32,000 bases of DNA. Source: Candidatus Iainarchaeum sp. (GTDB lineage: Archaea; Iainarchaeota; Iainarchaeia; Iainarchaeales; VGJJ01). The notes beneath the pieces were generated by a model. The model worked only from the letters and a program-made list of their open reading frames with translations. It ran no database searches and had not been told where the DNA came from. Shown here piece by piece: positions 3,143 through 29,735 of the stretch; positions within the stretch are counted from its first letter, which is position 1, and each line of letters begins with the position of its first letter. The stretch is from the NCBI GenBank assembly GCA_030688545.1, contig JAUYHT010000006.1, positions 330,001 to 362,000 of the forward strand, in the 5' to 3' direction. The position numbers and the translations under genes are program-made.

Positions 3143-4795
3143 TTACCCGTCATTATCATACAATTGGTGATACAACCGATAGAAGTCGCGGGTGGTATTG
3201 GTCATGGAATAGGCGTCCGTTTCGGGGTACAGGTCATCCGGCAAAGGGAAGTAGGATGAGATAGCTATATCATCCGGGTCGCCCCCGGCTGCCTTGAAAT
3301 CAACCAAATCCCGGAGGGTGTTTTCATAGAAGGCTTGGTTGCTCGTATGCCCTCCTTCCGCCGATCCATAATAGATACCGAAGCGTATTCCCTTATCCCG
3401 GAAGTATTCCTGTATCAACACATATTTTCTCCAATCATCCACCCATGGAGGACGATCAAACCGGGTTTCGGACTGGTAGAAATCCAGCTGTTCCCCGTTA
3501 TCTTGGACTACTTGGAGGAAGACATCCAATTGCGCGAGTAAATCCCCTGAGTCCTTCCACGTGGAAGAGGGGTAGGGGCCCACCGAATAATGAGGGGCGG
3601 CAATGGTCAACCCAATTTTGACCCCCGGATACCGCGCGCGCATGGCTTGCATGTATTCCACTGTCTCACTGGAGGCGCGCGTGATATCGAAGCCGCAGGG
3701 ATCCATCACACTGTCGGAGAACGGTCCGTCCATGTCGATGTAGTGGATGATGCCTCCCACCGCGACAAACCGATCCAGTATCCCAATATCAATAGCCGCC
3801 TGTTGGCTACCATCGCAGAGAGGATCTCGTAATCCCCCCACTTCGAAGGCGGCTTCAATCTGGTTGCTGAACAGAACGGGAACAATGATCTCCAGCTCGC
3901 CTTCATTGAGGTTATTGATCTGCCCGATGTAGAATTTGAAGGTGTGGAGGAATCCTTTCACCTCATCCCAACCGGCATCCGCATTGAAAATGAATTTTCC
4001 CAGATCCCGTCGCCCCTCATATAATTTGTTGGGGGCCATCCAGAAGCGTTTGCCATTTTCGGATCCCTTGGAGGAAAACGTTTGACATATCCCGCAATCC
4101 AGGGAGCAGGTATCGCAGGACTCAGTGCCATTGCACACATTGTCCCCGCAGAAAGGATTGGGGGTGCAGGCCTGCTGCGTGCCCGGTTCGTTTTGCGTCG
4201 TACCGCATTCATTCAGATCGGTACAGGACCTGGTTTGCGTGCCATTCGTACAAGGACCCCAATCCGAACAGAACCAATTTTCGATGCAGGCGCATTGGCC
4301 GCAATCCGCAGAGCACGTGGTACACGTTTCAGTAGACTCGCAAACACTATTACCACACACTGGGGCGCAAGTCCCACAATCCTGGGGACACGTAGAACAA
4401 CTCTCGGAATTGGAACAAAAATTGTCCCCACAAACAAAATTAGGAGCACACGTCCCACAATCTTGCGCACAACTCTGGCAAGACTCCCCCGCATCACAGA
4501 TAGTATTACCGCAAATGGGGGTAATGGGAACGCAATCCTGAATGAGAGTGGGCCTGCCCTCAACCGTATTGCAGGCATTACCATCCGTGCACGTGCGAAC
4601 CTGCTTCCCATTTGTACACGCCGACCAGCCCGAGCACACCCATTCAGGGTCACACGAAACAGGAGGACCCGGAGGAGTAATAGGAGGTTCGGGGATAATG
4701 GGCGGCGGCGCAAAGAAAACCACCCCCAAAACAACGGCCATGAGCACCAGCCCACTAATCCCAATGAGAAAAAGGGCCGTGATCTTGCCTTCCAT
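3143..4795 (-). CDS. Secreted or membrane-anchored cysteine-rich repeat protein with a C-terminal domain of unknown function (550 aa)
   Basis: N-terminal hydrophobic helix (ITALFLIGISGLVLMAVVLGVVFF), then a Pro-rich linker, then 36 Cys in about 190 aa arranged in repeated modules. A roughly 310-aa Cys-poor domain follows that I cannot assign. The codon pattern is coherent, and the gene has its own TATA box and T-tract. Confidence 0.85.
   Translation of the reverse strand: MEGKITALFLIGISGLVLMAVVLGVVFFAPPPIIPEPPITPPGPPVSCDPEWVCSGWSACTNGKQVRTCTDGNACNTVEGRPTLIQDCVPITPICGNTICDAGESCQSCAQDCGTCAPNFVCGDNFCSNSESCSTCPQDCGTCAPVCGNSVCESTETCTTCSADCGQCACIENWFCSDWGPCTNGTQTRSCTDLNECGTTQNEPGTQQACTPNPFCGDNVCNGTESCDTCSLDCGICQTFSSKGSENGKRFWMAPNKLYEGRRDLGKFIFNADAGWDEVKGFLHTFKFYIGQINNLNEGELEIIVPVLFSNQIEAAFEVGGLRDPLCDGSQQAAIDIGILDRFVAVGGIIHYIDMDGPFSDSVMDPCGFDITRASSETVEYMQAMRARYPGVKIGLTIAAPHYSVGPYPSSTWKDSGDLLAQLDVFLQVVQDNGEQLDFYQSETRFDRPPWVDDWRKYVLIQEYFRDKGIRFGIYYGSAEGGHTSNQAFYENTLRDLVDFKAAGGDPDDIAISSYFPLPDDLYPETDAYSMTNTTRDFYRLYHQLYDNDG
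4085..4654 (-). repeat. Intragenic protein repeats: four 22-aa six-Cys modules and two roughly 41-aa W-x-C-S-x-W modules
   Basis: There are four copies of C-G-[ND]-x2-C-x5-C-x2-C-x3-C-G-x-C: CGNTICDAGESCQSCAQDCGTC, CGDNFCSNSESCSTCPQDCGTC, CGNSVCESTETCTTCSADCGQC and CGDNVCNGTESCDTCSLDCGIC. Their nt coordinates are 4448..4513, 4367..4432, 4292..4357 and 4085..4150. There are two copies of W-[VF]-C-S-x-W-x2-C-T-N-G-x-Q-x-R-x-C-T-D-x-N-x-C. Confidence 0.85.
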
Positions 4796-20148: not shown

Positions 20149-20463
20149 ATGAGCGGGATTCTCTATCTCCTATACCTGGTCCTCGTCCTTGGGGGGACGC
20201 TGGCCATGATTAAGATAATGAGCATTCGTTTCTCCCCCCGGAAAGCGTGGAGTGCCGTGAATGCTATTGGAATAGTGGCGCTTCTCTTTATCGCGTGGGA
20301 TACCCTGGCGGTGGCGCGGGGGCATTGGACATTCGGTCCTGAACACCTCATGGGTCTTTTTATCGGCAACCAGCCCATCGAAGAAATACTATTCTTTTTC
20401 ATCATCCCCTTCTTCGGATTGGGGGTTTGGGAATGGGTAGGTCAAAAGAATGGAGGGGCCTGA
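20149..20463 (+). CDS. crtYc: Lycopene cyclase domain protein (heterodimeric-type subunit, CrtYc-like)
   Basis: About 104 aa with three hydrophobic helices and the PIEEILFF (PxEE) motif characteristic of the lycopene cyclase domain. The ORF-track GTG start at 20107 is possible. Confidence 0.78.
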   Translation: MSGILYLLYLVLVLGGTLAMIKIMSIRFSPRKAWSAVNAIGIVALLFIAWDTLAVARGHWTFGPEHLMGLFIGNQPIEEILFFFIIPFFGLGVWEWVGQKNGGA

Positions 20464-20873
20464 TGGAATACACCATTTGGGTTTCCCTGGCCCTGTTCGG
20501 GGTGTGGATGTTAGACCTGATCCTGGAAACGAAAGTCATTCGACCCACGCGCCGGTTGGTTTTCACCACTGGAATATTCCTCGTATTCCAGCTCGTATTC
20601 GACAACCTGTTTACTTCCCAGGGGATATGGAGGTTTAATCCAAACGCAGTATTGGGAATATACCTTCCCATCATCCCCCTCGAGAACCTCCTGTTCGGCA
20701 CCGCCTTGTTGTGGAGCACTCTTATTTTATACACGCAATTCCAGAAGATGCAATATGACCCGCATCCCCCCAAAGAAGCGCCCGCTACTTTCCCGGATCA
20801 GACGGTCTTCCCATTTCCAAAAAAAAGCATTGTATCGCGAACGACTGAGAACCATTTCCGAGGAAATACTTGA
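20463..20873 (+). CDS. crtYd: Lycopene cyclase domain protein (second subunit, CrtYd-like) with a non-conserved roughly 40-aa tail
   Basis: The start ATG overlaps the crtYc stop (TGATG). Three helices and the PLENLLFG motif are present. The last roughly 40 codons overlap the next ORF out of frame. Confidence 0.78.
   Translation: MEYTIWVSLALFGVWMLDLILETKVIRPTRRLVFTTGIFLVFQLVFDNLFTSQGIWRFNPNAVLGIYLPIIPLENLLFGTALLWSTLILYTQFQKMQYDPHPPKEAPATFPDQTVFPFPKKSIVSRTTENHFRGNT
20724..20731 (+). promoter_or_regulatory. TATA box (ATTTTATA) inside the crtYd 3' end, 23 nt upstream of the ATG at 20755
   Basis: Same box-to-ATG spacing as the other leaderless candidates. Confidence 0.35.
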
Positions 20874-21309
20874 GATAAAAAAGAGATTGAAACACCTGCA
20901 ACAGCAGACCATCCGATCACCCCGGACAGAAATGGATCTATTGGTCAGGTTACGCGATTATCACCAAAAGCTGTTGCACTATCGCTTGCTCCGGAAGGAA
21001 GGGTTAAATGTGGTCGGGCGGGCATTGAATGATCCCATCGCCTTTTTCCGCGTGCAGCGCATGCGCGCCAAACGGATTATCAAGCGTTGGTGGGGAAAAC
21101 GAGTGGTTTCGCTGGAAGAGTACGCCGATGCCCAGCATGAACTCATGGAACTGGAATTCTTGGAACGGATGGAACAGATTGGGGGACATTGGTCGCTCAC
21201 ACGACTCGAGAAAAAGAGGTTATTGGAACTGCAAGGCATAAAGCCGCATTTGGAAAAGGCCATGGCCAAATATCAAAGGAGAAAAGGGGATGAAAACGTT
21301 CATCAATGA
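20755..21309 (+). CDS. Hypothetical highly basic, predicted coiled-coil protein (184 aa)
   Basis: It is the only coherent ORF covering 20874..21302. It has heptad-like, Arg/Lys/Glu/Leu-rich helices (EEILEIKKRLKHLQQQ, HELMELEFLERMEQ). I recognise no family. It overlaps the crtYd tail by 119 nt and the crtI 3' end by 7 nt. Confidence 0.55.
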   Translation: MTRIPPKKRPLLSRIRRSSHFQKKALYRERLRTISEEILEIKKRLKHLQQQTIRSPRTEMDLLVRLRDYHQKLLHYRLLRKEGLNVVGRALNDPIAFFRVQRMRAKRIIKRWWGKRVVSLEEYADAQHELMELEFLERMEQIGGHWSLTRLEKKRLLELQGIKPHLEKAMAKYQRRKGDENVHQ

Positions 21310-22832
21310 CCTTCGGTCTCCTGCAGGAGGCGTTCACACGTGCGGGCCGAAATAAGAACCATGGGCATCCCACTTCCTGGATGGGTGCTGGCGCCCACGA
21401 AATAGAGGTTTTCCACCTCCTCGCTTTTTTGGGAGGGCCGGAAAACACTGCTCTGGAGGAATAGCGGGGCTAATCCGAATGTCGAGCCGAAGTGCATGCC
21501 TCCTAATTTTTCCCAATCATCTGGGGTGAAGATTTCAATCATCTCGATGTTCTTACGGAGGTCCGTCAACCCGCTGGCCTCCAATCTTTCCAGTACGCGC
21601 TGGGTGAAAACCTCTTTCTCGCTTTTCCAATCCACTCCTCCATCTTTTTTGAGATGGGGAACAGGAACCAAGACATTCAGTAAGTGTTTCCCCCGTGGGG
21701 CCGTTTTGGGATGGGTGCGTGTTGGAACATTCACGTAGAAACTGGGTTGGGTGGGCAGGATTTTTTCATCGAAAATCTCCCTGAAATTCATTAGAAAATC
21801 CGGGGAGAAGAACACATTGTGGTGCAGGAGTTGCGGATAATCTTTCTTCACTCCCAGGTGGAGCATGAAGGCCGAACAGCCATAGGTTAGGGAGTCTATC
21901 TTCTTGTCGGGGTAGTAGGTTGTCCGGTTTTCACGGGGAATCAACCGTGCATACGTCGCGGGCAGGTCAAGATTGCTGATGAGGGTATCTGTGGTTATGG
22001 TTTTCCCATTCTTCAATACGATACCTCTGGCCCCCTTCTCTTCTACCATTATTCGTTCCACGGGGCACGAATAGTGGATTACCACCCCCAACTCGCGGGC
22101 CAACGTTTCAATCCCCCTCATGATGGTTGGCATCCCCCCAGACGGGTACCATACTCCCTCCATCATCTCGATGAAAGGAATCATGGAATAGGTTCCCGGG
22201 GTGCGCAAGGGGCTCTCCCCCACGTACATACTTTGAAAAGAGAAGGCTAATCGTATCTTTTCATCCGGAAAAAAACTTCCGGCGTGTTCCCACATGGAGG
22301 TGAATCCATCGGCCCCCAGCATCTTTCCCCATTCTCCCGATAAAACCAATGCTTTCACCGTTGAATGATTTCGGTCGATGAAGGCAGGGTAGATGGTGTC
22401 ATATTTTTGTTGCTCATACGCGAGAAAATCCAATACCCCCTGCCACGACCCGGAGGATACGCGCTCAAACTCTTTTTTGGCATGGGGAAGACGGCTGGAC
22501 ATATCCAAAGATGTTCCATCCCAATAGTGAATCCGGAGATAGGGATGGAGATTTTCAAACTGGAAATAGTTTTCCATGCGTCGCCCGCAGTACGAGAAGA
22601 GTTCCTCGAATTCTCCCGGCATCAGTACAAACGTGGGCCCCCGGTCGATGGTATATCCCTTTTTGGTGAAAGAAGATAGTCTCCCTCCCGGAAATGGATT
22701 TTTCTCGAACACGTGAACGTTTTTACCGCGTGAGGCGAGGCGGCAGGCGAGCGCCAACCCTCCCAACCCCGCCCCGATGATGGCAAATGAAACGTGAGAA
22801 GGAATTATTTTTTTCACGGGGCGCGGGGGCAT
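21303..22832 (-). CDS. crtI: Phytoene desaturase (CrtI family FAD-dependent oxidoreductase)
   Basis: 509 aa. The N-terminal dinucleotide fold FAIIGAGLGGLALACRLASRGKNVHVFEKNPFPGGR and the C-terminal YFVGASTHPGSGMPMV signature are present. It lies directly downstream of crtB. Confidence 0.9.
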   Translation of the reverse strand: MPPRPVKKIIPSHVSFAIIGAGLGGLALACRLASRGKNVHVFEKNPFPGGRLSSFTKKGYTIDRGPTFVLMPGEFEELFSYCGRRMENYFQFENLHPYLRIHYWDGTSLDMSSRLPHAKKEFERVSSGSWQGVLDFLAYEQQKYDTIYPAFIDRNHSTVKALVLSGEWGKMLGADGFTSMWEHAGSFFPDEKIRLAFSFQSMYVGESPLRTPGTYSMIPFIEMMEGVWYPSGGMPTIMRGIETLARELGVVIHYSCPVERIMVEEKGARGIVLKNGKTITTDTLISNLDLPATYARLIPRENRTTYYPDKKIDSLTYGCSAFMLHLGVKKDYPQLLHHNVFFSPDFLMNFREIFDEKILPTQPSFYVNVPTRTHPKTAPRGKHLLNVLVPVPHLKKDGGVDWKSEKEVFTQRVLERLEASGLTDLRKNIEMIEIFTPDDWEKLGGMHFGSTFGLAPLFLQSSVFRPSQKSEEVENLYFVGASTHPGSGMPMVLISARTCERLLQETEGH

Positions 22833-22859
22833 ACGCGATAGGAATGAATTATCCTTCTT

Positions 22860-23720
22860 TTAAGGGTGTCCGGGGAGGATGGTTTTTTGCTCCTGACATA
22901 TTTGGCGCATGCGCGAATCCGACACCCGAACACGGGAGGAAAACACATCGTATCCTCGCTGTTCAATTTCATCCAAAATCCCTTCGTATAGCGCGCCGCA
23001 AAGGAAAGTTCCCATGCGTGCGTGACGAGGAATGGAATACTTGGCCTCGCGCGCGGGCACATAAAATGAGCGGGCCCGGGCCACCTGGAAACGCATGAGT
23101 TCCTGGAATGCTGGAGTGATTTTCCCGGCGGCCAACTCCTCCTCCGTGTATCCGAACGATTTAATATCTTCGTGGGGTAAATACACGCGCCCTATTTCAA
23201 AATCCTCTTGGATGTCCCGGAGGATATTAGTGAGCTGCATCCCAATGCCTAAAGCGACCGCGGCGGACATACTCGCTAGCGGCGCGCCCACCAATCGAGC
23301 CATCATCCGTCCGGGGATGCCTCCCGCGGCGGCGCAATAGTGGTGTAATGATTCAAATGTCGCATAGCGATGACACGTCAAATCCCTCCGCAATCCCTCG
23401 ATGAGGGCGAATCCGTCGGTCTGGGGAATCCAATATTCCCGGCAGGTATTCACGAATGCGGATAGGATGGGGTGAGACGCGGAATTATTTTCCCATCCGT
23501 GGTGCAAATCCTTTTCCCATTCCTGCAATTTATTTTTTTTGCTCGATGGATCCATTTTTCCATCGACAATATCATCGGTGGCCCGGCAGAAAAGGTGTAC
23601 AGCGGTAGCGGCTCGTCGGATGTCTAAAGGGAAACTCTCGGCAGCGATTGCGAAGCTCGATAGGGATTCAGTGAGAGGAACGGATTGGGGGGAAGTAATA
23701 GAATACATCTGCCGCCGCAT
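22860..23720 (-). CDS. crtB: Phytoene synthase (squalene/phytoene synthase family)
   Basis: 286 aa. Two Asp-rich motifs are present (FCRATDDIVDG and NILRDIQEDFEIGRVYLP). Confidence 0.92.
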   Translation of the reverse strand: MRRQMYSITSPQSVPLTESLSSFAIAAESFPLDIRRAATAVHLFCRATDDIVDGKMDPSSKKNKLQEWEKDLHHGWENNSASHPILSAFVNTCREYWIPQTDGFALIEGLRRDLTCHRYATFESLHHYCAAAGGIPGRMMARLVGAPLASMSAAVALGIGMQLTNILRDIQEDFEIGRVYLPHEDIKSFGYTEEELAAGKITPAFQELMRFQVARARSFYVPAREAKYSIPRHARMGTFLCGALYEGILDEIEQRGYDVFSSRVRVSDSRMRQICQEQKTILPGHP

Positions 23721-25092: not shown

Positions 25093-25704
25093 TTATCCCT
25101 GGGCAGGTGACCGCATCTCGAACATCCGGGCATTAGCCGCCTTCTCTTCCATGAATCCCCAGTTCAGATTTTTCATGAATATCTCGATGTATTCTTTTCG
25201 GTTGGTCCCATAGTCCAGGAAATAGGCATGCTCGTACACATCCAATATCAGGACCGCGGAACAATCCCAGATACCTCCTTGGTTGTGGGCGTCGCAGATG
25301 TAGTTATGCAGTTTCATGTCCTGCCAATCGAATGCCAGCACCACCCATCCCCGGGCGGCCATCCCCAGGGCTTTGAATTCGGCCTCCCATTTTTCATACG
25401 ACCCAAAATCCTCTTCGATCATTTTCAACAGGTTTCCACTAGGCCTTCCTCCCTTCCCCCCGAGGGCGGCGAAATAGCCTTCGTGTAATCGCACCCCATT
25501 GACGGCGAATCCTTCTTCTATCTTGACGGCGCGCAATTGGGAATAGGTCTGGTTGGCCTTGGTGAGATCAACCGTTTTGAGGGCCTCCCTCAACTCATCC
25601 GTCTTCTTCACATAGCCCACATATAGTACGTCGTGGTGTTCCGAGATCTGCTTCTCGGTGAGCCCCTGCAAGCTCTTGTAAGTCAATGGTTTGGGTTCAG
25701 TCAT
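25093..25704 (-). CDS. sod: Fe/Mn-family superoxide dismutase
   Basis: 203 aa. The N-terminal EHHDVLYVGYV and the C-terminal DVYEHAYFLDY (D-x-W/Y-E-H-A-Y motif) supply the metal ligands. GGGAGGA lies 11 nt upstream of the ATG. Confidence 0.92.
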   Translation of the reverse strand: MTEPKPLTYKSLQGLTEKQISEHHDVLYVGYVKKTDELREALKTVDLTKANQTYSQLRAVKIEEGFAVNGVRLHEGYFAALGGKGGRPSGNLLKMIEEDFGSYEKWEAEFKALGMAARGWVVLAFDWQDMKLHNYICDAHNQGGIWDCSAVLILDVYEHAYFLDYGTNRKEYIEIFMKNLNWGFMEEKAANARMFEMRSPAQG

Positions 25705-26466: not shown

Positions 26467-26895
26467 CTATAACAGCGCGCGCTGCTCGTCCGCGAGCCTT
26501 TCCTTGAGCAGGGCGATGGGTTGTCTCCCATTGAACCCAGAGTCTTCATCGTGGAAATAGAGCACTTCGGATTCGTCGTATTGCCAGCAGAGCAATAGGT
26601 CCTTTCCCCCCATTTTGGTGTAGAAATCAACCAGCCCTTGAGAGACGTCCTTCACATAGCAACCCATCCGTGTGAGGGTTTCGAGTTCGGCAAAATATTT
26701 GAATGACAATTCATGATAACGCTTGTTGATGTTGATGGCCAGTATTTGGGCCTTCAGATCAGGGGAGTACGCGTGCACTTTAACCCCCGTGAGGGCGAGG
26801 AGCTCGTCATGAATAGTCATGAGTTTCTCCATGTGGCGTTTCACTTTGGGAAGGATGCGTTCGACTTCCTCAACGGTGAAATAATAACGGGACAT
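26467..26895 (-). CDS. DUF2203-like protein
   Basis: 142 aa from the ATG at 26895 (the track start at 26901 is a TTG). The N-terminus MSRYYFTVEEVERILPKV and LLLCWQYDESEVLYFHDEDSGFNGRQPI resemble DUF2203 as I recall it. Confidence 0.7.
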   Translation of the reverse strand: MSRYYFTVEEVERILPKVKRHMEKLMTIHDELLALTGVKVHAYSPDLKAQILAININKRYHELSFKYFAELETLTRMGCYVKDVSQGLVDFYTKMGGKDLLLCWQYDESEVLYFHDEDSGFNGRQPIALLKERLADEQRALL

Positions 26896-26917
26896 GAACA
26901 AGTAGCGAAGCCACCGT

Positions 26918-26924
26918 TTTTATA
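26918..26924 (-). promoter_or_regulatory. TATA box (minus strand TATAAAA) 22 nt upstream of the DUF2203 ATG
   Basis: Read directly. Confidence 0.42.
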
Positions 26925-27097
26925 GATTCTCTATTAAGGCTTCCCTCGGCGCGCGGGCGGCCATCTGTTTATTATAAAAGAAACGGTCCCCCGCCAATTC
27001 GATGTCGATGCGTCTTGCAATGAGTTTATCCCGGTGGAAGTTTATCGGGATGCCATCCATTTCGTAAAAAGGCTAGTTATTGCAGCAAGAAACCATC

Positions 27098-27994
27098 TCA
27101 TCCCTGCTTTTCATTCGGAATGGTGTCCATAAACCATTTAATCTTCTGCCCCGGGTGTAGGGTGCGCGGGCACTCATCGGCCTTTTCCAACGAGTAGGGC
27201 ACCGGCAGGTGTTTTTTGATGATGGCCACGCGCGTGGCATCCCCATCCCGCGCATCCACGGCATACTGATGCGCCTTGACGAATGCGGCCGGACTCAAAC
27301 CCCCTGTTTTCCAAACTTCGGCGGAGGCGTGGCATATCCCGCATAGGGTACATTGATGGGCGTCCCCCAATTGTCTTATTTCATCTGGAGACATTCTGTA
27401 GCGGCGAATATCCATTTGTTTTCGAGGGACGAGGTGGGAATTTACTTGAGTTAGTTGGTGGAAGAACTCTTTCTCGTCGCACACTAAATCCTTGATTACC
27501 CTCTCCGGGGTCAGGGGGTCGATGCGGATGCTCCCGTTTTGATCGATATGATCCCCTACTTTGATGACGCATCCTAAGACGGGGCGGCCATTCACTCGCA
27601 TCCCGCAGGAACCACAACTGGCGTGTCCACAGTTTGAGCGAAAGGTCAAACTTCCATCCTGGGTGTGTTTGAGTCGCAGAAGGAGTTCCGCGACACTCTC
27701 CCCCTCTTTTGGGGAGATGGCATACTCATGCGTGCGGGGACCGAAATCCATGTGAGGATTATATCGGCTGACCCGCACGAACCAGGTGGAAGGGAATACG
27801 TGTTTGGGGATTCTTTTTGGGGGAGATCGATTGGTTTTCCGGGGGTTAATTAGAGGTTTCCTTTTTTTCAATGGGATATTTTTTTTCTTTTGAATATATT
27901 TTTTCTGTTTTCGAGGGAAAATAGTTTTCCTCGGAGAGGGTTTGCCTTTTGGAATAAGCGTTGATTTCCGTTTCTTTGTTTTAAGTCGGGCCAT
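27098..27994 (-). CDS. Succinate dehydrogenase / fumarate reductase Fe-S subunit-like protein with a polybasic N-terminal extension and no [3Fe-4S] ligands
   Basis: The [2Fe-2S] motif C-x4-C-x2-C-x11-C (CGHASCGSCGMRVNGRPVLGC) and CTLCGIC...ECP are present. The ATG at 27994 lies 1 nt after the flavoprotein stop. The track start at 28021 overlaps the upstream gene by 26 nt. Confidence 0.85.
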   Translation of the reverse strand: MARLKTKKRKSTLIPKGKPSPRKTIFPRKQKKYIQKKKNIPLKKRKPLINPRKTNRSPPKRIPKHVFPSTWFVRVSRYNPHMDFGPRTHEYAISPKEGESVAELLLRLKHTQDGSLTFRSNCGHASCGSCGMRVNGRPVLGCVIKVGDHIDQNGSIRIDPLTPERVIKDLVCDEKEFFHQLTQVNSHLVPRKQMDIRRYRMSPDEIRQLGDAHQCTLCGICHASAEVWKTGGLSPAAFVKAHQYAVDARDGDATRVAIIKKHLPVPYSLEKADECPRTLHPGQKIKWFMDTIPNEKQG

Positions 27995-27995
27995 A

Positions 27996-29735
27996 TTAGT
28001 AATGCCTTCCTTCCGGCGCATAGCCTTTGATCACCACGCTCTTATAGGTTAGCGCCACGCCCTTCCCTTTTTTGGTCGCGAGGGTGTGTTTCAACCATTT
28101 GGCATTGTCCCTCCGGGGATAATCGATACGAGTATGCGTGCCTCGGCTCTCGGTGCGGGCGAGGGCGCTGGCCAATATGGCTTCGGAGATGGAAACCAAA
28201 TGATGAGTCTCGAGAGCCGCGAGGAGATCGGTGTTGTACACAGGGGATTTGTCGTCCACGTGTAATTGTTCAATCTGCGTGCGAATCTTCTCCCAGCCCC
28301 GCATCCCCCGGGAGAGAGACGCGTTACTCCGGTAGATCCCGCAGGTTTGGGTCATTAATTGGGACAATTTTTCCTGAACGTCATAGGATTTGAATCCATG
28401 GGACGTGGTCAAAAACCGGTTAATCCTTTCCCGCGCGCGTTCCAGGTGGATGGAATCATGGGGCTTGAGTGAAGATTTGCGGGTGCGCACCTGGTGACTC
28501 ATTCGCAAACCTGCGATGCGGCCGAATACCAGGCTTTCCAGCACCGTGTTTCCTCCCAATCCATTGGCCCCATGCACGCCCGCGCAGGCCGTTTCCCCGG
28601 CCGCATACAGATGGGGGAGAATTGTGTTACGGGCATCCGTCACGACGCGGGTTTGCAGGTCGATGGGAATACCCCCCATAGTGAGGTGCGCCGCGGGGGA
28701 AACGGGAATATGTTCTTGCGTGCCATCGATATTCAAATGGGTTTTGACCATGTGGATGGTTTCAGGAAGATGCGCTGAAATGGCTTTTTCTCCCATTGGC
28801 CGTGCGTCCAATAATACATGATCATTTTGGGGACCCACTCCCCTTTTGCTCATTATTTCCTTGGCAATCGCCCGGGCGATAATATCCCGGGGCGCCCGTT
28901 CCAGGGCAGTGGGGGCATACCGCTTCATGAAGCGTTCGCCTTTCGCATTGAGCAGGTGCGCCCCTTCTCCGCAGGCCGCCTCCGGGATAACATATCCTTT
29001 TCCATGCATCCCGGTGGGGTGGAATTGGACAAACTCCATGTCTTCCAATGGCAATCCCGCGTTGAAGGCCAATGCGAGCCCATCCCCTGTGCTGGCATTC
29101 GTATTTGTGGTGGGAGAAAAAATCCTTCCCGATCCTCCGGTGGCCAGCATCACCGCGCGGGCATGGGCCTCGATGAGTTTCCCTTTTTGAATGTCCAGGA
29201 GAATGGCTCCTTGGCAACCATTTTCTTCTACAACCAAACCCACACAAAAATAATCCGTGTACATCGTAGGATGGGTCTTCATGAGTTGATCATGCAAGAG
29301 GTGCAGGAGCAGGTGCCCCGTGCGATCCTCCGCGTAATGAGTGCGAGGTTTTTGATGCCCCCCAAGGACGCGTCGGGCCATCTCTCCTTTTTGGGTGCGT
29401 GAAAACGCGAGCCCCCAAGAAGATTCCAGTTCCTTCACTCGGGCGGGGGCCTCTTGGCACATTATTTCGATGGCGTCCTGGTCCCCGAGAAAATCGCCCC
29501 CATAAACGGTGTCATTGAAATGCTTTTTCCAATCATCCTGTGGCCCCATCGCCGCATTGATACCATCACTTGCGTCCGCTACATGAGCGCGCACCGGGTG
29601 GACCTTGGAAACGATTCCCACGTCCATGTTCTGCTGGCGTGCCTCGATCGCCGCCCGTTGTCCGGCGATCCCTGCGCCAATGATGAGGATGTCGTGGGAG
29701 ATGGAGGGCATATCCTCCCGACTAAAACAGCCCAT
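27996..29735 (-). CDS. SdhA/FrdA-family flavoprotein (succinate dehydrogenase / fumarate reductase flavoprotein-like, atypical active site)
   Basis: 579 aa. Contains ILIIGAGIAGQRAA, RAH (covalent-FAD His position), AEDRTGH, DMEFVQFHPTG, APRDIIARAI, AHLTMGGI and ESRGTHTRIDYPRRDNAKWLKHTL. Deviations from consensus are described in the findings. An alternative start is at 29711. Confidence 0.9.
   Translation of the reverse strand: MGCFSREDMPSISHDILIIGAGIAGQRAAIEARQQNMDVGIVSKVHPVRAHVADASDGINAAMGPQDDWKKHFNDTVYGGDFLGDQDAIEIMCQEAPARVKELESSWGLAFSRTQKGEMARRVLGGHQKPRTHYAEDRTGHLLLHLLHDQLMKTHPTMYTDYFCVGLVVEENGCQGAILLDIQKGKLIEAHARAVMLATGGSGRIFSPTTNTNASTGDGLALAFNAGLPLEDMEFVQFHPTGMHGKGYVIPEAACGEGAHLLNAKGERFMKRYAPTALERAPRDIIARAIAKEIMSKRGVGPQNDHVLLDARPMGEKAISAHLPETIHMVKTHLNIDGTQEHIPVSPAAHLTMGGIPIDLQTRVVTDARNTILPHLYAAGETACAGVHGANGLGGNTVLESLVFGRIAGLRMSHQVRTRKSSLKPHDSIHLERARERINRFLTTSHGFKSYDVQEKLSQLMTQTCGIYRSNASLSRGMRGWEKIRTQIEQLHVDDKSPVYNTDLLAALETHHLVSISEAILASALARTESRGTHTRIDYPRRDNAKWLKHTLATKKGKGVALTYKSVVIKGYAPEGRHY

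What the first reader, a model, noticed from the sequence alone, without database searches (positions are those of the whole stretch)
27996..29735. SdhA/FrdA-like flavoprotein is canonical almost everywhere but lacks three near-invariant dicarboxylate-site residues
**Canonical motifs retained.**
- Rossmann GxGxAG
- the His at the covalent-FAD position (VRAH)
- AEDRTGH
- FHPTG
- the RD arginine (APRDIIARAI)
- HxxMGG
- the ESRG..H.R.D.P.RD..W.KHTL C-terminus

**Substitutions.** As I recall the family consensus, three positions conserved across SdhA, FrdA, soluble flavocytochrome fumarate reductases and NadB are changed.
- The hinge/relay segment (V/I)-T-E-(G/A)-x-R-G-E-G reads VIPEAACGEGA here. 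The Thr becomes Pro251 (nt 28983..28985) and the Arg becomes Cys255 (nt 28971..28973).
- The substrate carboxylate-binding Arg of H-G-A-N-R-L-G reads HGANGLGGN here, so the Arg becomes Gly392 (nt 28560..28562).

**Inference.** Losing the carboxylate-clamping Arg and a proton-relay Arg while everything else is kept argues against ordinary succinate/fumarate or aspartate chemistry. It suggests an altered substrate or a non-catalytic role.
Basis: partly seen in the sequence, partly recalled or inferred. Interest (0 to 1): 0.7.

Follow-up and report, generated by a model that had tools for sequence, protein, structure and literature searches.

The report
Eroded succinate dehydrogenase flavoprotein, DPANN archaeon
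This succinate-dehydrogenase/fumarate-reductase flavoprotein gene, from a small DPANN archaeon, has real mutations that destroy its substrate-binding site in a genome region that has also lost the neighbouring fumarate-lyase gene, so it is most likely an evolutionary relic or a re-used protein shell rather than a new enzyme class.

Summary

- **The gene.** ORF 27996..29735 (-) is an SdhA/FrdA flavoprotein of a Candidatus Diapherotrites archaeon.
- **The substitutions.** Ungapped alignments place Pro251, Cys255 and Gly392 on E. coli SdhA T254, R258 and R399. In 117 related SdhAs these columns are 100% Ser/Thr, Arg and Arg.
- **More than three changes.** The protein departs from consensus at 17 of 131 ultra-conserved columns, against a median of 0 and a maximum of 7 in the others. 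Its branch is about twice as long as those of its orthologues.
- **A singleton, not a clade.** About 20 Diapherotrites orthologues (50-60% identity, same synteny) are canonical.
- **Link to a lost gene.** All 8 canonical loci inspected carry an aspartase/fumarase-family lyase gene directly after sdhB. That gene is missing here. It is also missing in the only other eroded orthologue (P0018), which lost different catalytic residues independently.
- **Still under some selection.** The ORF has no stops or indels. sdhB keeps all its retained Fe-S ligands. Substitutions still avoid conserved columns.
- **Best reading.** Fumarate/succinate chemistry was lost under relaxed, but not absent, selection after the fumarate pathway was lost.
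- **Side finding.** The whole clade's SdhB lacks the [3Fe-4S] ligands and carries a Lys/Arg-rich N-terminal tail.

Moderate interest.

The parts
27996..29735 (-). sdhA/frdA-like flavoprotein gene. The ORF is 579 aa; the probable real start is the ATG at 29711 (571 aa).
   Evidence: AF2 model: pLDDT 88.8. Foldseek TM 0.94-0.96 to complex II flavoproteins.
28983..28985 (-). Pro251 codon (CCG), at the position of SdhA T254 / FrdA T244, the transition-state Thr/Ser.
   Evidence: The column is Ser 89 / Thr 28 in 117 SdhAs.
28971..28973 (-). Cys255 codon (TGC), at the position of SdhA R258, the Arg of the TE(G/A)xRGEG loop.
   Evidence: The column is Arg 117/117.
28560..28562 (-). Gly392 codon (GGA), at the position of SdhA R399 / FrdA R390, the carboxylate-binding Arg of HGANRLG.
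   Evidence: The column is Arg 117/117. Role of the residue from PMC5773532.
29565..29567 (-). Asp57 codon (GAT), replacing the invariant Gly of the AQGG loop next to the flavin.
   Evidence: The column is Gly 117/117.
29583..29585 (-). His51 codon (CAT), the retained histidine at the covalent-FAD position.
27098..27994 (-). sdhB-like iron-sulfur subunit gene (298 aa). Its start is coupled to the sdhA stop (TAATATG).
   Evidence: Fer2_3 E 1.4e-25; TIGR00384 140 bits, above the cut-off of 88. Start.
27797..27994 (-). Lys/Arg/Pro-rich, acid-free N-terminal tail of SdhB: 66 aa with 27 K+R and 0 D/E.
   Evidence: Shorter tails of the same kind occur in all Diapherotrites SdhBs and are absent in outgroups.
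27569..27631 (-). SdhB [2Fe-2S] motif Cx4Cx2Cx11C, intact.
27320..27352 (-). SdhB motif II, CTLCGICHASA. The three [4Fe-4S] Cys are kept. The fourth Cys, a [3Fe-4S] ligand, is Ala.
27167..27181 (-). Remnant of SdhB motif III (ADECP). Only the last Cys-Pro, the fourth [4Fe-4S] ligand, is kept. The two [3Fe-4S] Cys are absent.
26902..27097 (.). 196-nt spacer between sdhB and the DUF2203 gene. In 8 of 8 canonical relatives a ~490-aa aspartase/fumarase-family lyase gene sits here. No remnant of it is detectable.
26467..26901 (-). DUF2203 gene, a conserved neighbour of the sdhAB(-lyase) cluster in every locus examined.

Best explanation
**What it is.** This is the orthologue of a Diapherotrites-specific SdhAB enzyme that appears to have no membrane anchor. 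In relatives the enzyme is encoded as sdhA-sdhB-lyase and most probably interconverts fumarate and succinate.

**What happened (inferred).**
- In this genome the fumarate-forming lyase gene has been deleted from the cluster.
- Selection on the dicarboxylate site of SdhA then relaxed.
- The side chains that clamp and activate fumarate/succinate were lost. These are T/S254 to Pro, R399 to Gly, the loop Arg258 to Cys, and the flavin-loop Gly to Asp. Conserved positions all over the protein were also substituted at an elevated rate.
- The protein can therefore no longer bind or turn over fumarate or succinate. Without R399 it probably does not attach FAD covalently either, although the His is still there.

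**Current state.** It is not a free-running pseudogene. The reading frame, the FAD-binding fold, translational coupling to sdhB and every Fe-S ligand that the clade's SdhB retains ([2Fe-2S] and [4Fe-4S]) are kept. It is either a relic held by weak residual selection, or a flavin/Fe-S shell kept for a secondary role.

**Shown:** the substitutions, their register, their uniqueness, the rate acceleration, the absence of the lyase at this locus, and the parallel case.

**Inferred:** loss of activity, the order of events, and residual selection.
For: 1. **Register and invariance** of the lost residues. Their roles come from PMC5773532.

2. **Gene-wide erosion.**
- 17 of 131 ultra-conserved columns are changed, against a median of 0 and a maximum of 7 in the others.
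- Identity to 99 non-clade SdhAs is 45%, against 50-53% for all 18 canonical clade members.
- Root-to-tip distance is 0.555, against 0.25-0.32.
- TIGR01812 scores 639 bits, against 723-760.
- SdhA identity window-L004 is 60%, against 70% for L003-L004, although the flanking genes are equally or less diverged.

3. **Synteny and the lyase.**
- The order GGR-GT2-GT4-sdhA-sdhB-[lyase]-DUF2203-methyltransferase-SOD-GGR is conserved.
- The lyase is present in 8 of 8 loci with canonical SdhA: L003, L004, L005, L006, L086, L087, L088 and L090.
- It is absent in both loci with eroded SdhA, the window and L002/P0018.
- Matching contig lengths suggest 8 more canonical cases.

4. **Independent parallel case.** P0018 lost H45, T254, R258, R286 and H354, a different set. 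Its flanking genes are 82-89% identical to canonical L004 while its SdhA is only 66% identical.

5. **No convergence.** The two eroded proteins share 4 deviant columns; about 3 are expected by chance.

6. **Residual selection.**
- A neutral simulation gives P(no stop codon) of about 0.02 at 13% amino-acid drift.
- The query has no indel relative to the clade.
- Excess substitution rises from 0.13 at columns at least 97% conserved to 0.40 at the least conserved columns.
- SdhB keeps all its retained Cys ligands and is not accelerated: 57% identity to L004, against 51.5% for L003-L004.
- For the parallel case, sdhA omega is 0.18 against 0.03-0.08 for its neighbours.

7. **Fold.** It is predicted as intact as in canonical P0002.
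Against: - There is no biochemical or expression data.
- Only 32 kb of this genome was seen, plus about 8 kb more in L089. The lyase, or a second canonical sdhA, could lie elsewhere. No lyase of this clade was found on the genome's known contigs, but the protein search lists only the best 120 hits.
- This is a single lineage with no close relative, so dS is saturated and omega on its own branch cannot be measured.
- The lyase itself cannot be assigned to aspartase or fumarase.
- An intact, coupled sdhAB with an unaccelerated SdhB fits a real new function as well as it fits a relic.
- The 8 canonical loci are phylogenetically related. The association therefore rests on two independent co-losses, not on 10 independent observations.
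Confidence: 0.6

Rival explanations
1. **Neofunctionalisation.** The flavoprotein has acquired a new substrate that is not a dicarboxylate. The P/C/G changes, together with Asp57, His375, Arg121 and Lys297, are adaptive remodelling of the pocket. The retained FAD and the two Fe-S clusters still carry electrons.
For: - The ORF is intact with no indels, and its survival is improbable under neutrality.
- SdhB is unaccelerated and all its retained ligands are kept.
- Translational coupling and a ribosome-binding site are kept.
- The net pocket charge shifts by about -3 (two Arg lost, one Asp gained). This would suit a neutral or cationic ligand (inference).
Against: - The substitutions are not confined to the pocket. 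The excess is present in every conservation tier.
- The parallel lineage P0018 shows no convergence and destroyed other residues, including the flavinylation His and the proton-donor Arg.
- No clade conserves the new residues.
- From my own knowledge, the FAD_binding_2 enoate reductases with other substrates that I am aware of (urocanate, for example) still use the Arg equivalent to R399.
Confidence: 0.15
2. **Pseudogene in waiting.** The gene is already fully neutral and simply has not yet been hit by a stop codon or frameshift.
For: - The lyase partner is lost.
- The fraction of ultra-conserved columns changed (13%) is about equal to the overall excess divergence.
- There is an ascertainment bias: only intact ORFs are noticed, and only intact ORFs enter protein databases.
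Against: - P(no stop codon) is about 0.02 for the query and 0.003-0.006 for P0018 under substitution-only neutrality, and lower still once indels are included.
- There are no indels.
- Excess substitution is three times lower at conserved columns than at variable columns.
- Omega is 0.18, well below 1, for the parallel case.
- SdhB is unaccelerated.
Confidence: 0.12
3. **Still active.** The protein is still a working, if weaker, fumarate reductase or succinate dehydrogenase. Other residues or water compensate for the missing Arg and Thr.
For: - H242, E255, R286 (the proton donor) and H354 equivalents are retained.
- The fold and the SdhB partner are retained.
Against: - R399 and the Ser/Thr are invariant in 117 of 117 relatives.
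- FrdA R390 binds the substrate carboxylate, and its mutation abolishes flavinylation. T244 stabilises the transition state (PMC5773532).
- An Asp is added at the invariant flavin-loop Gly.
- The gene that supplies or uses fumarate is gone from the cluster.
Confidence: 0.1
4. **Artefact.** The three codons are sequencing, assembly or binning errors in a metagenome-assembled genome.
For: - Each change is reachable by a single nucleotide substitution.
- The three assemblies may derive from the same reads.
Against: - The DNA is identical in three assemblies, including an independent Logan assembly.
- The anomaly is not three codons but 17 or more conserved columns plus a gene-wide rate increase.
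- The missing lyase is a structural difference shared by all three assemblies.
Confidence: 0.02

Closest known systems
SdhA/FrdA flavoprotein subunit of complex II (E. coli SdhA 1NEK, FrdA 1KF6; TIGR01812)
   Same: - Same two-domain architecture, and a fold with TM 0.93-0.96.
- 38% sequence identity in the structural alignment to E. coli SdhA (1nek_A).
- Rossmann motif and the His at the covalent-FAD position.
- Equivalents of H242, E255, R286 and H354.
- An adjacent SdhB gene.

   Different: - It lacks T254, R258 and R399 and the flavin-loop Gly51.
- Its partner SdhB has no [3Fe-4S] ligands.
- No SdhC/D gene is nearby.
Canonical Diapherotrites SdhAB-lyase cluster (e.g. Ca. Iainarchaeum CP064981.1, locus L003; L004; L090)
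   Same: - It is the orthologue by synteny, at 50-61% identity.
- It has the same SdhB type: a basic N-terminal tail, [2Fe-2S] and [4Fe-4S] ligands only.
- It has the same DUF2203, methyltransferase and SOD neighbours.

   Different: - The relatives keep every catalytic residue and keep the aspartase/fumarase-family lyase gene after sdhB.
- The window has lost both.

P0018 / locus L002 (Logan SRR22387960), the other eroded orthologue
   Same: - Same synteny without the lyase.
- Same acceleration: 45% identity to outgroups and 23 of 131 ultra-conserved columns changed.
- It also lost the Ser/Thr and the loop Arg.

   Different: - It is an independent event. Its genome is a close relative of canonical L004 (flanking genes 82-89% identical).
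- It keeps R399 but lost H45, R286 and H354.
- Its SdhB is also accelerated, which is not the case in the window.

Soluble SdhA homologues (Shewanella flavocytochrome c3 fumarate reductase, yeast Osm1, L-aspartate oxidase NadB, methanogen TfrA)
   Same: They have a membrane-independent FAD_binding_2 catalytic domain. Weak to moderate sequence matches are seen.
   Different: - From my own knowledge, not tested here, those enzymes keep the two Arg and two His of the dicarboxylate site.
- The NadB and TfrA equivalog cut-offs are not reached: 359 against 453 bits, and 443 against 718 bits.
- None of them pairs with a two-cluster SdhB that carries a basic tail.

Membership tests
SdhA/FrdA flavoprotein subfamily (Pfam PF00890+PF02910; TIGR01812) | FAD_binding_2 domain followed by the Succ_DH_flav_C domain | tested here: met
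   E 1e-94 and E 1.5e-36, both full length.
SdhA/FrdA flavoprotein subfamily (Pfam PF00890+PF02910; TIGR01812) | Score above the curated TIGR01812 cut-off | tested here: met
   638.8 bits against a cut-off of 567.3. This is 85-120 bits below canonical orthologues, which score 723-760.
SdhA/FrdA flavoprotein subfamily (Pfam PF00890+PF02910; TIGR01812) | Histidine for the 8-alpha-N3-histidyl FAD link | tested here: met
   H51 aligns with SdhA H45. Whether flavinylation actually occurs cannot be tested here.
SdhA/FrdA flavoprotein subfamily (Pfam PF00890+PF02910; TIGR01812) | Complete dicarboxylate site (SdhA H242, T254, R286, H354, R399; FrdA H232, T244, R287, H355, R390) | tested here: not met
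   T254 is Pro and R399 is Gly. In addition R258 is Cys and G51 is Asp. Residue roles come from PMC5773532.
SdhA/FrdA flavoprotein subfamily (Pfam PF00890+PF02910; TIGR01812) | Complex II flavoprotein fold | tested here: met
   AF2 pLDDT 88.8 and pTM 0.91. Foldseek TM 0.94-0.96 to 6myr_A, 2h89_A and 1nek_A. The prediction is driven by the alignment, so this is weak evidence.
SdhA equivalog models (TIGR01816 sdhA_forward; NF004613) | Score above the equivalog cut-off | tested here: not met
   575.9 against 727.35 bits, and 589 against 824 bits. Canonical clade members also fail (668-700 and 693-703 bits), so this is a clade property.
Membrane-bound complex II (SQR/QFR) | SdhB with [2Fe-2S], [4Fe-4S] and [3Fe-4S] ligands | tested here: not met
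   The three [3Fe-4S] Cys are absent in the window and in all Diapherotrites SdhBs examined (13 further loci: L001-L006, L086-L088 aligned here, plus L089-L091 by gene call). They are present in outgroups.
Membrane-bound complex II (SQR/QFR) | Membrane anchor genes (SdhC/D, or an SdhE-type CCG subunit) with the operon | tested here: not met
   No such domain was found among the ORFs scanned in the window or among the called genes of any related locus listed with Pfam hits. Presence elsewhere in the genome cannot be tested here.
L-aspartate oxidase (NadB) | Score above the TIGR00551 cut-off; stand-alone flavoprotein | tested here: not met
   358.8 against 452.75 bits. The gene is coupled to an sdhB gene.
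Thiol:fumarate reductase TfrA | Score above the NF004900 cut-off; a TfrB partner with CCG domains | tested here: not met
   443.2 against 718 bits. The partner matches TfrB at only 81.8 against 385 bits.

The most novel reading that the evidence does not exclude
Diapherotrites archaea carry an undescribed, anchor-less SdhAB. It has only [2Fe-2S] and [4Fe-4S] clusters, a polybasic tail on SdhB, and is genetically coupled to an aspartase/fumarase-like lyase and DUF2203. In the window lineage, and independently in P0018, this flavin/Fe-S module has been kept after fumarate chemistry was abandoned because it has been co-opted. The new role would be a redox or structural function that does not involve dicarboxylates.
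Probability: 0.2. Interest if true: 0.6.

Novelty: new variant of a known kind. Interest (0 to 1): 0.4.

Why it matters
**Annotation.** Automated pipelines call this protein 'FAD-binding protein / succinate dehydrogenase'. A metabolic reconstruction of this DPANN genome would therefore wrongly credit it with fumarate/succinate conversion.

**Evolution.** The pair of independent cases gives a clean natural experiment on how an enzyme erodes in a streamlined genome. In both cases the lyase is gone and the SdhA site is eroded, yet the frame is kept. The erosion is scattered across the whole gene and hits different catalytic residues in each lineage, while the fold and the Fe-S partner persist.

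**The clade-wide variant.** All Diapherotrites SdhBs examined lack the [3Fe-4S] ligands and carry a polybasic tail. No paper describing this was found. It raises the question of which redox partner serves an anchor-less complex II in DPANN archaea.

Tried and rejected
- **Genome-collection scan with the query.** The patterns hit generic SdhAs. Only one Diapherotrites locus (L006) was useful, and the source genome itself was not returned.
- **dN/dS on the window branch.** dS is saturated or undefined against every relative. Only the L002-L004 pair gave usable values.
- **Search for lyase remnants.** tblastn with three lyases and a malic enzyme against the window, L001 and L002 gave only chance hits. 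The 46-aa ORF in the spacer is unrelated.
- **Test for a relocated lyase in this genome.** The candidate lyase clusters P0129 and P0141 belong to other assemblies. Absence is not proven.
- **NJ tree.** It pairs the query with P0018. I rejected this as long-branch attraction. Their raw identity (55%) is lower than either one's identity to canonical sequences, and the flanking genes place L002 next to L004.
- **Convergence test.** The two eroded proteins share 4 columns against about 3 expected, which is no signal.
- **AF2 model with a canonical control.** The two models have nearly identical confidence. The only differences are dips at blocks 381-390 and 411-420. This does not discriminate, and no coordinates are returned, so no pocket geometry or docking was possible.
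- **Assigning the neighbour as FumC or AspA.** The result is ambiguous.
- **Literature searches for Diapherotrites SdhAB or a [3Fe-4S]-less SdhB.** Nothing relevant was found.
- **DUF2203 against the PDB.** No relative was found.
Full report
**1. What is at the coordinates**

The ORF 27996..29735 (-) encodes 579 aa.
- It has a full-length FAD_binding_2 domain (E 1e-94) followed by Succ_DH_flav_C (E 1.5e-36).
- It passes the NCBIfam subfamily model TIGR01812, 'succinate dehydrogenase or fumarate reductase, flavoprotein subunit', with 638.8 bits against a cut-off of 567.3.
- The likely start is Met9. An ATG at 29711 is preceded by GGAGG, and public annotations give 571 aa.

The next gene, 27098..27994 (-), starts at the sdhA stop (TAATATG) and is an SdhB-type iron-sulfur protein.

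The rest of the window carries split archaeal RNA polymerase subunits, EF-2 and EF-1alpha. The identical protein is deposited as 'Candidatus Diapherotrites archaeon'. The organism is therefore a DPANN archaeon.

**2.

HMMER alignments to E. coli SdhA (1nek_A) and M. smegmatis Sdh2 (6lum_A) run without gaps through both motifs. They give these equivalences:

| Query residue | E. coli SdhA | State |
|---|---|---|
| P251 | T254 | lost |
| C255 | R258 | lost |
| G392 | R399 | lost |
| H51 | H45 | retained |
| H239 | H242 | retained |
| E252 | E255 | retained |
| R283 | R286 | retained |
| H350 | H354 | retained |

- The codons are CCG, TGC and GGA at exactly the stated positions.
- In a MAFFT alignment with 117 other SdhAs, column 251 is Ser 89 / Thr 28, column 255 is Arg 117/117 and column 392 is Arg 117/117.
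- In E. coli FrdA the equivalent residues H232, H355, R390, T244 and R287 are the five side chains that hold fumarate. T244 stabilises the transition state. Mutation of R390 eliminates covalent flavinylation (PMC5773532).

So two of the five substrate ligands are gone. The retained His51 may well not be flavinylated (inference).

**3. The damage is wider than three residues**

- Of 131 columns at least 97% conserved in the 117 other sequences, the query deviates at 17: G57D, Q121R, F124L, C133H, E161D, L249V, R255C, G297K, H313P, L314M, Y351L, G375H, S386G, R392G, S397T, L398V and D544N. The Ser/Thr251-to-Pro change comes on top of these. The other sequences have a median of 0 and a maximum of 7.
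- From memory, not tested here, G51, F119 and L252 of E. coli SdhA also line the dicarboxylate pocket. That would put about 5 of the 18 changes in the first shell.
- The query is 45% identical to 99 non-clade SdhAs, whereas all 18 canonical members of its own clade are 50-53% identical.
- Its TIGR01812 score is 85-120 bits lower than theirs.
- Its root-to-tip distance in an NJ tree is 0.555, against 0.25-0.32.

**4. It is a singleton, not a clade feature**

A search of 5.8 billion proteins found the identical protein and then a jump to about 20 Diapherotrites sequences at 50-60% identity.
- All but one of them read RSHS...AAAGG, VSEASRGEG, LASRD, HYSMGG and HGANRLGGN, which is fully canonical.
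- The identical DNA (14,005 nt, 0 mismatches) is present in two other assemblies: GCA_034375545.1, and a Logan assembly of SRR13727534. Two NCBI protein accessions exist.
- Together with the gene-wide pattern, this makes an assembly error very unlikely.

**5. Context gives the explanation**

The gene order helicase-GGR-GT2-GT4-sdhA-sdhB-X-DUF2203-methyltransferase-SOD-GGR-(PSY-CrtI) is conserved across the clade.
- In all 8 loci with canonical SdhA that I inspected, X is a ~490-aa Lyase_1/FumaraseC_C protein. These loci are L003, L004, L005, L006, L086, L087, L088 and L090.
- NCBIfam cannot decide between aspartase and class II fumarase for X. NF008909 scores 470-553 bits against a cut-off of 510. 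The aspA and fumC equivalog models each score about 390-440 bits, far below their cut-offs. Either reaction has fumarate as substrate or product.
- In the window X is missing. A 196-nt spacer remains with no detectable remnant.

The only other clade member with a damaged SdhA, P0018 (locus L002), also lacks X.
- P0018 lost a different set of residues: H45 to Pro, Ser/Thr to Gly, R258 to Leu, R286 to His and H354 to Gln. R399 is kept.
- Its flanking genes are 82-89% identical to those of canonical L004, while its SdhA is 66% and its SdhB 58% identical.
- The window is equidistant from L002 and L004 in every flanking gene. The two erosions are therefore independent.
- The NJ pairing of the two long branches is contradicted by their raw identity of 55% and is best read as long-branch attraction.
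- The deviant columns of the two proteins overlap no more than chance predicts (4 against about 3). There is no sign of convergence on a new active site.

**6. Relic or repurposed?**

Several observations argue against a gene that is already fully neutral.
- The frame is intact and has no indel relative to the clade.
- I simulated substitution without selection from canonical sdhA DNA until 13% of residues had changed, which matches the fraction of ultra-conserved columns changed in the query. Only about 2% of runs stayed free of stop codons. For P0018's 17.6% the figure is 0.3-0.6%. Indels were ignored.
- The excess substitution in the query rises from 0.13 at the most conserved columns to 0.40 at the least conserved. 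The old constraint profile is therefore still felt.
- The window's SdhB keeps all four [2Fe-2S] Cys and the four [4Fe-4S] Cys. It is not accelerated: 57% identity to L004, against 51.5% for L003-L004. It deviates at 8 of 53 clade-invariant columns, mostly conservatively, against 0-6 for in-group controls.
- For the L002-L004 pair, where dS is still measurable (about 1.5), sdhA omega is 0.18 against 0.03-0.08 for the neighbours. That indicates relaxed selection, not absent selection.
- For the window itself dS is saturated.
- AF2 predicts the fold as confidently as for canonical P0002 (pLDDT 88.8 against 89.5). The model superposes on complex II flavoproteins at TM 0.94-0.96. This is alignment-driven and does not discriminate.

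My best reading is loss of fumarate/succinate chemistry under relaxed selection after the fumarate pathway was abandoned, with the sdhAB pair still weakly maintained. A genuinely new function of the flavin/Fe-S shell cannot be excluded (about 15-20%).

**7. Comparison with known systems**

By fold, domain architecture and profile score the protein is a member of the SdhA/FrdA subfamily. It fails the defining complete dicarboxylate site.

The enzyme type of the whole clade also differs from textbook complex II.
- Every Diapherotrites SdhB examined lacks precisely the three [3Fe-4S] cysteines. Motif II reads CxxCxxCxxx followed by a non-Cys residue (Ala, Thr, His or Asn), and only the last Cys-Pro of motif III is kept.
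- Outgroup SdhBs from Chloroflexota, Thermoplasmata, Bathyarchaeota and Woesearchaeota keep these cysteines.
- Every Diapherotrites SdhB also has a 20-66-aa Lys/Arg-rich N-terminal tail with almost no acidic residues. The window's tail is 66 aa with 27 K+R.
- No anchor subunit gene is seen at any locus.
- I found no paper describing this.

**8. Verdict**

- The finding is a lineage-specific eroded variant of a known enzyme. Its evolutionary context is informative, and the clade-level SdhB peculiarity is mildly novel.
- Interest 0.4.

Noticed in passing
window 27098-27994 (-); also L002-L006, L086-L088, L090: All Diapherotrites SdhB proteins lack the three [3Fe-4S] cysteine ligands but keep the [2Fe-2S] and [4Fe-4S] ligands. 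Outgroup SdhBs keep all of them. No SdhC/D-like gene is adjacent. This implies an anchor-less, two-cluster SdhAB type.
   Followed up: partly
window 27797-27994 (-): SdhB carries a 66-aa N-terminal tail with 27 Lys/Arg, 11 Pro in the first 72 residues, and no acidic residue. Shorter tails of the same kind (20-65 aa) occur in every clade member and in no outgroup. Their function is unknown.
   Followed up: partly
L003 13071-14537, L004 12512-13990, L005 13837-15228, L086 8543-10018: The lyase that follows sdhB in relatives sits between aspartase and class II fumarase by NCBIfam. NCBI names it aspartate ammonia-lyase. Its SS-loop reads GSSIMPGKVNPSI(L/V/P)EA. In L005 a malic enzyme gene lies between sdhB and the lyase.
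   Followed up: partly
window 26467-26901 (-): A DUF2203 gene is a conserved neighbour of the sdhAB(-lyase) cluster in every locus examined. It has no relative in the PDB by sequence.
   Followed up: partly
L002 10001-11719 (protein P0018): This is a second, independently eroded SdhA orthologue. The covalent-FAD His is Pro, the proton-donor Arg is His and H354 is Gln, yet the 572-aa ORF is intact. Its SdhB is also fast-evolving.
   Followed up: yes
window 20149-23720 and 25093-25704: The same conserved neighbourhood of this DPANN genome holds a carotenoid gene set (phytoene synthase, a CrtI-type desaturase, two lycopene-cyclase-domain ORFs) and an Fe/Mn superoxide dismutase.
   Followed up: no
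window 3143-4795 (-): A 550-aa ORF between the EF-1alpha and EF-2 genes has no Pfam match.
   Followed up: no
protein P0035 (one search hit, 44% identity, other lineage): Another SdhA-like protein has Gln at the covalent-FAD His and 7 deviations at ultra-conserved columns. It is the largest outlier after the two Diapherotrites cases.
   Followed up: no
L089 12135-12638: The Logan gene call for sdhB is truncated to 167 aa although the DNA is identical to the window. This is a gene-calling difference caused by the unusual basic tail, not a sequence difference.
   Followed up: yes
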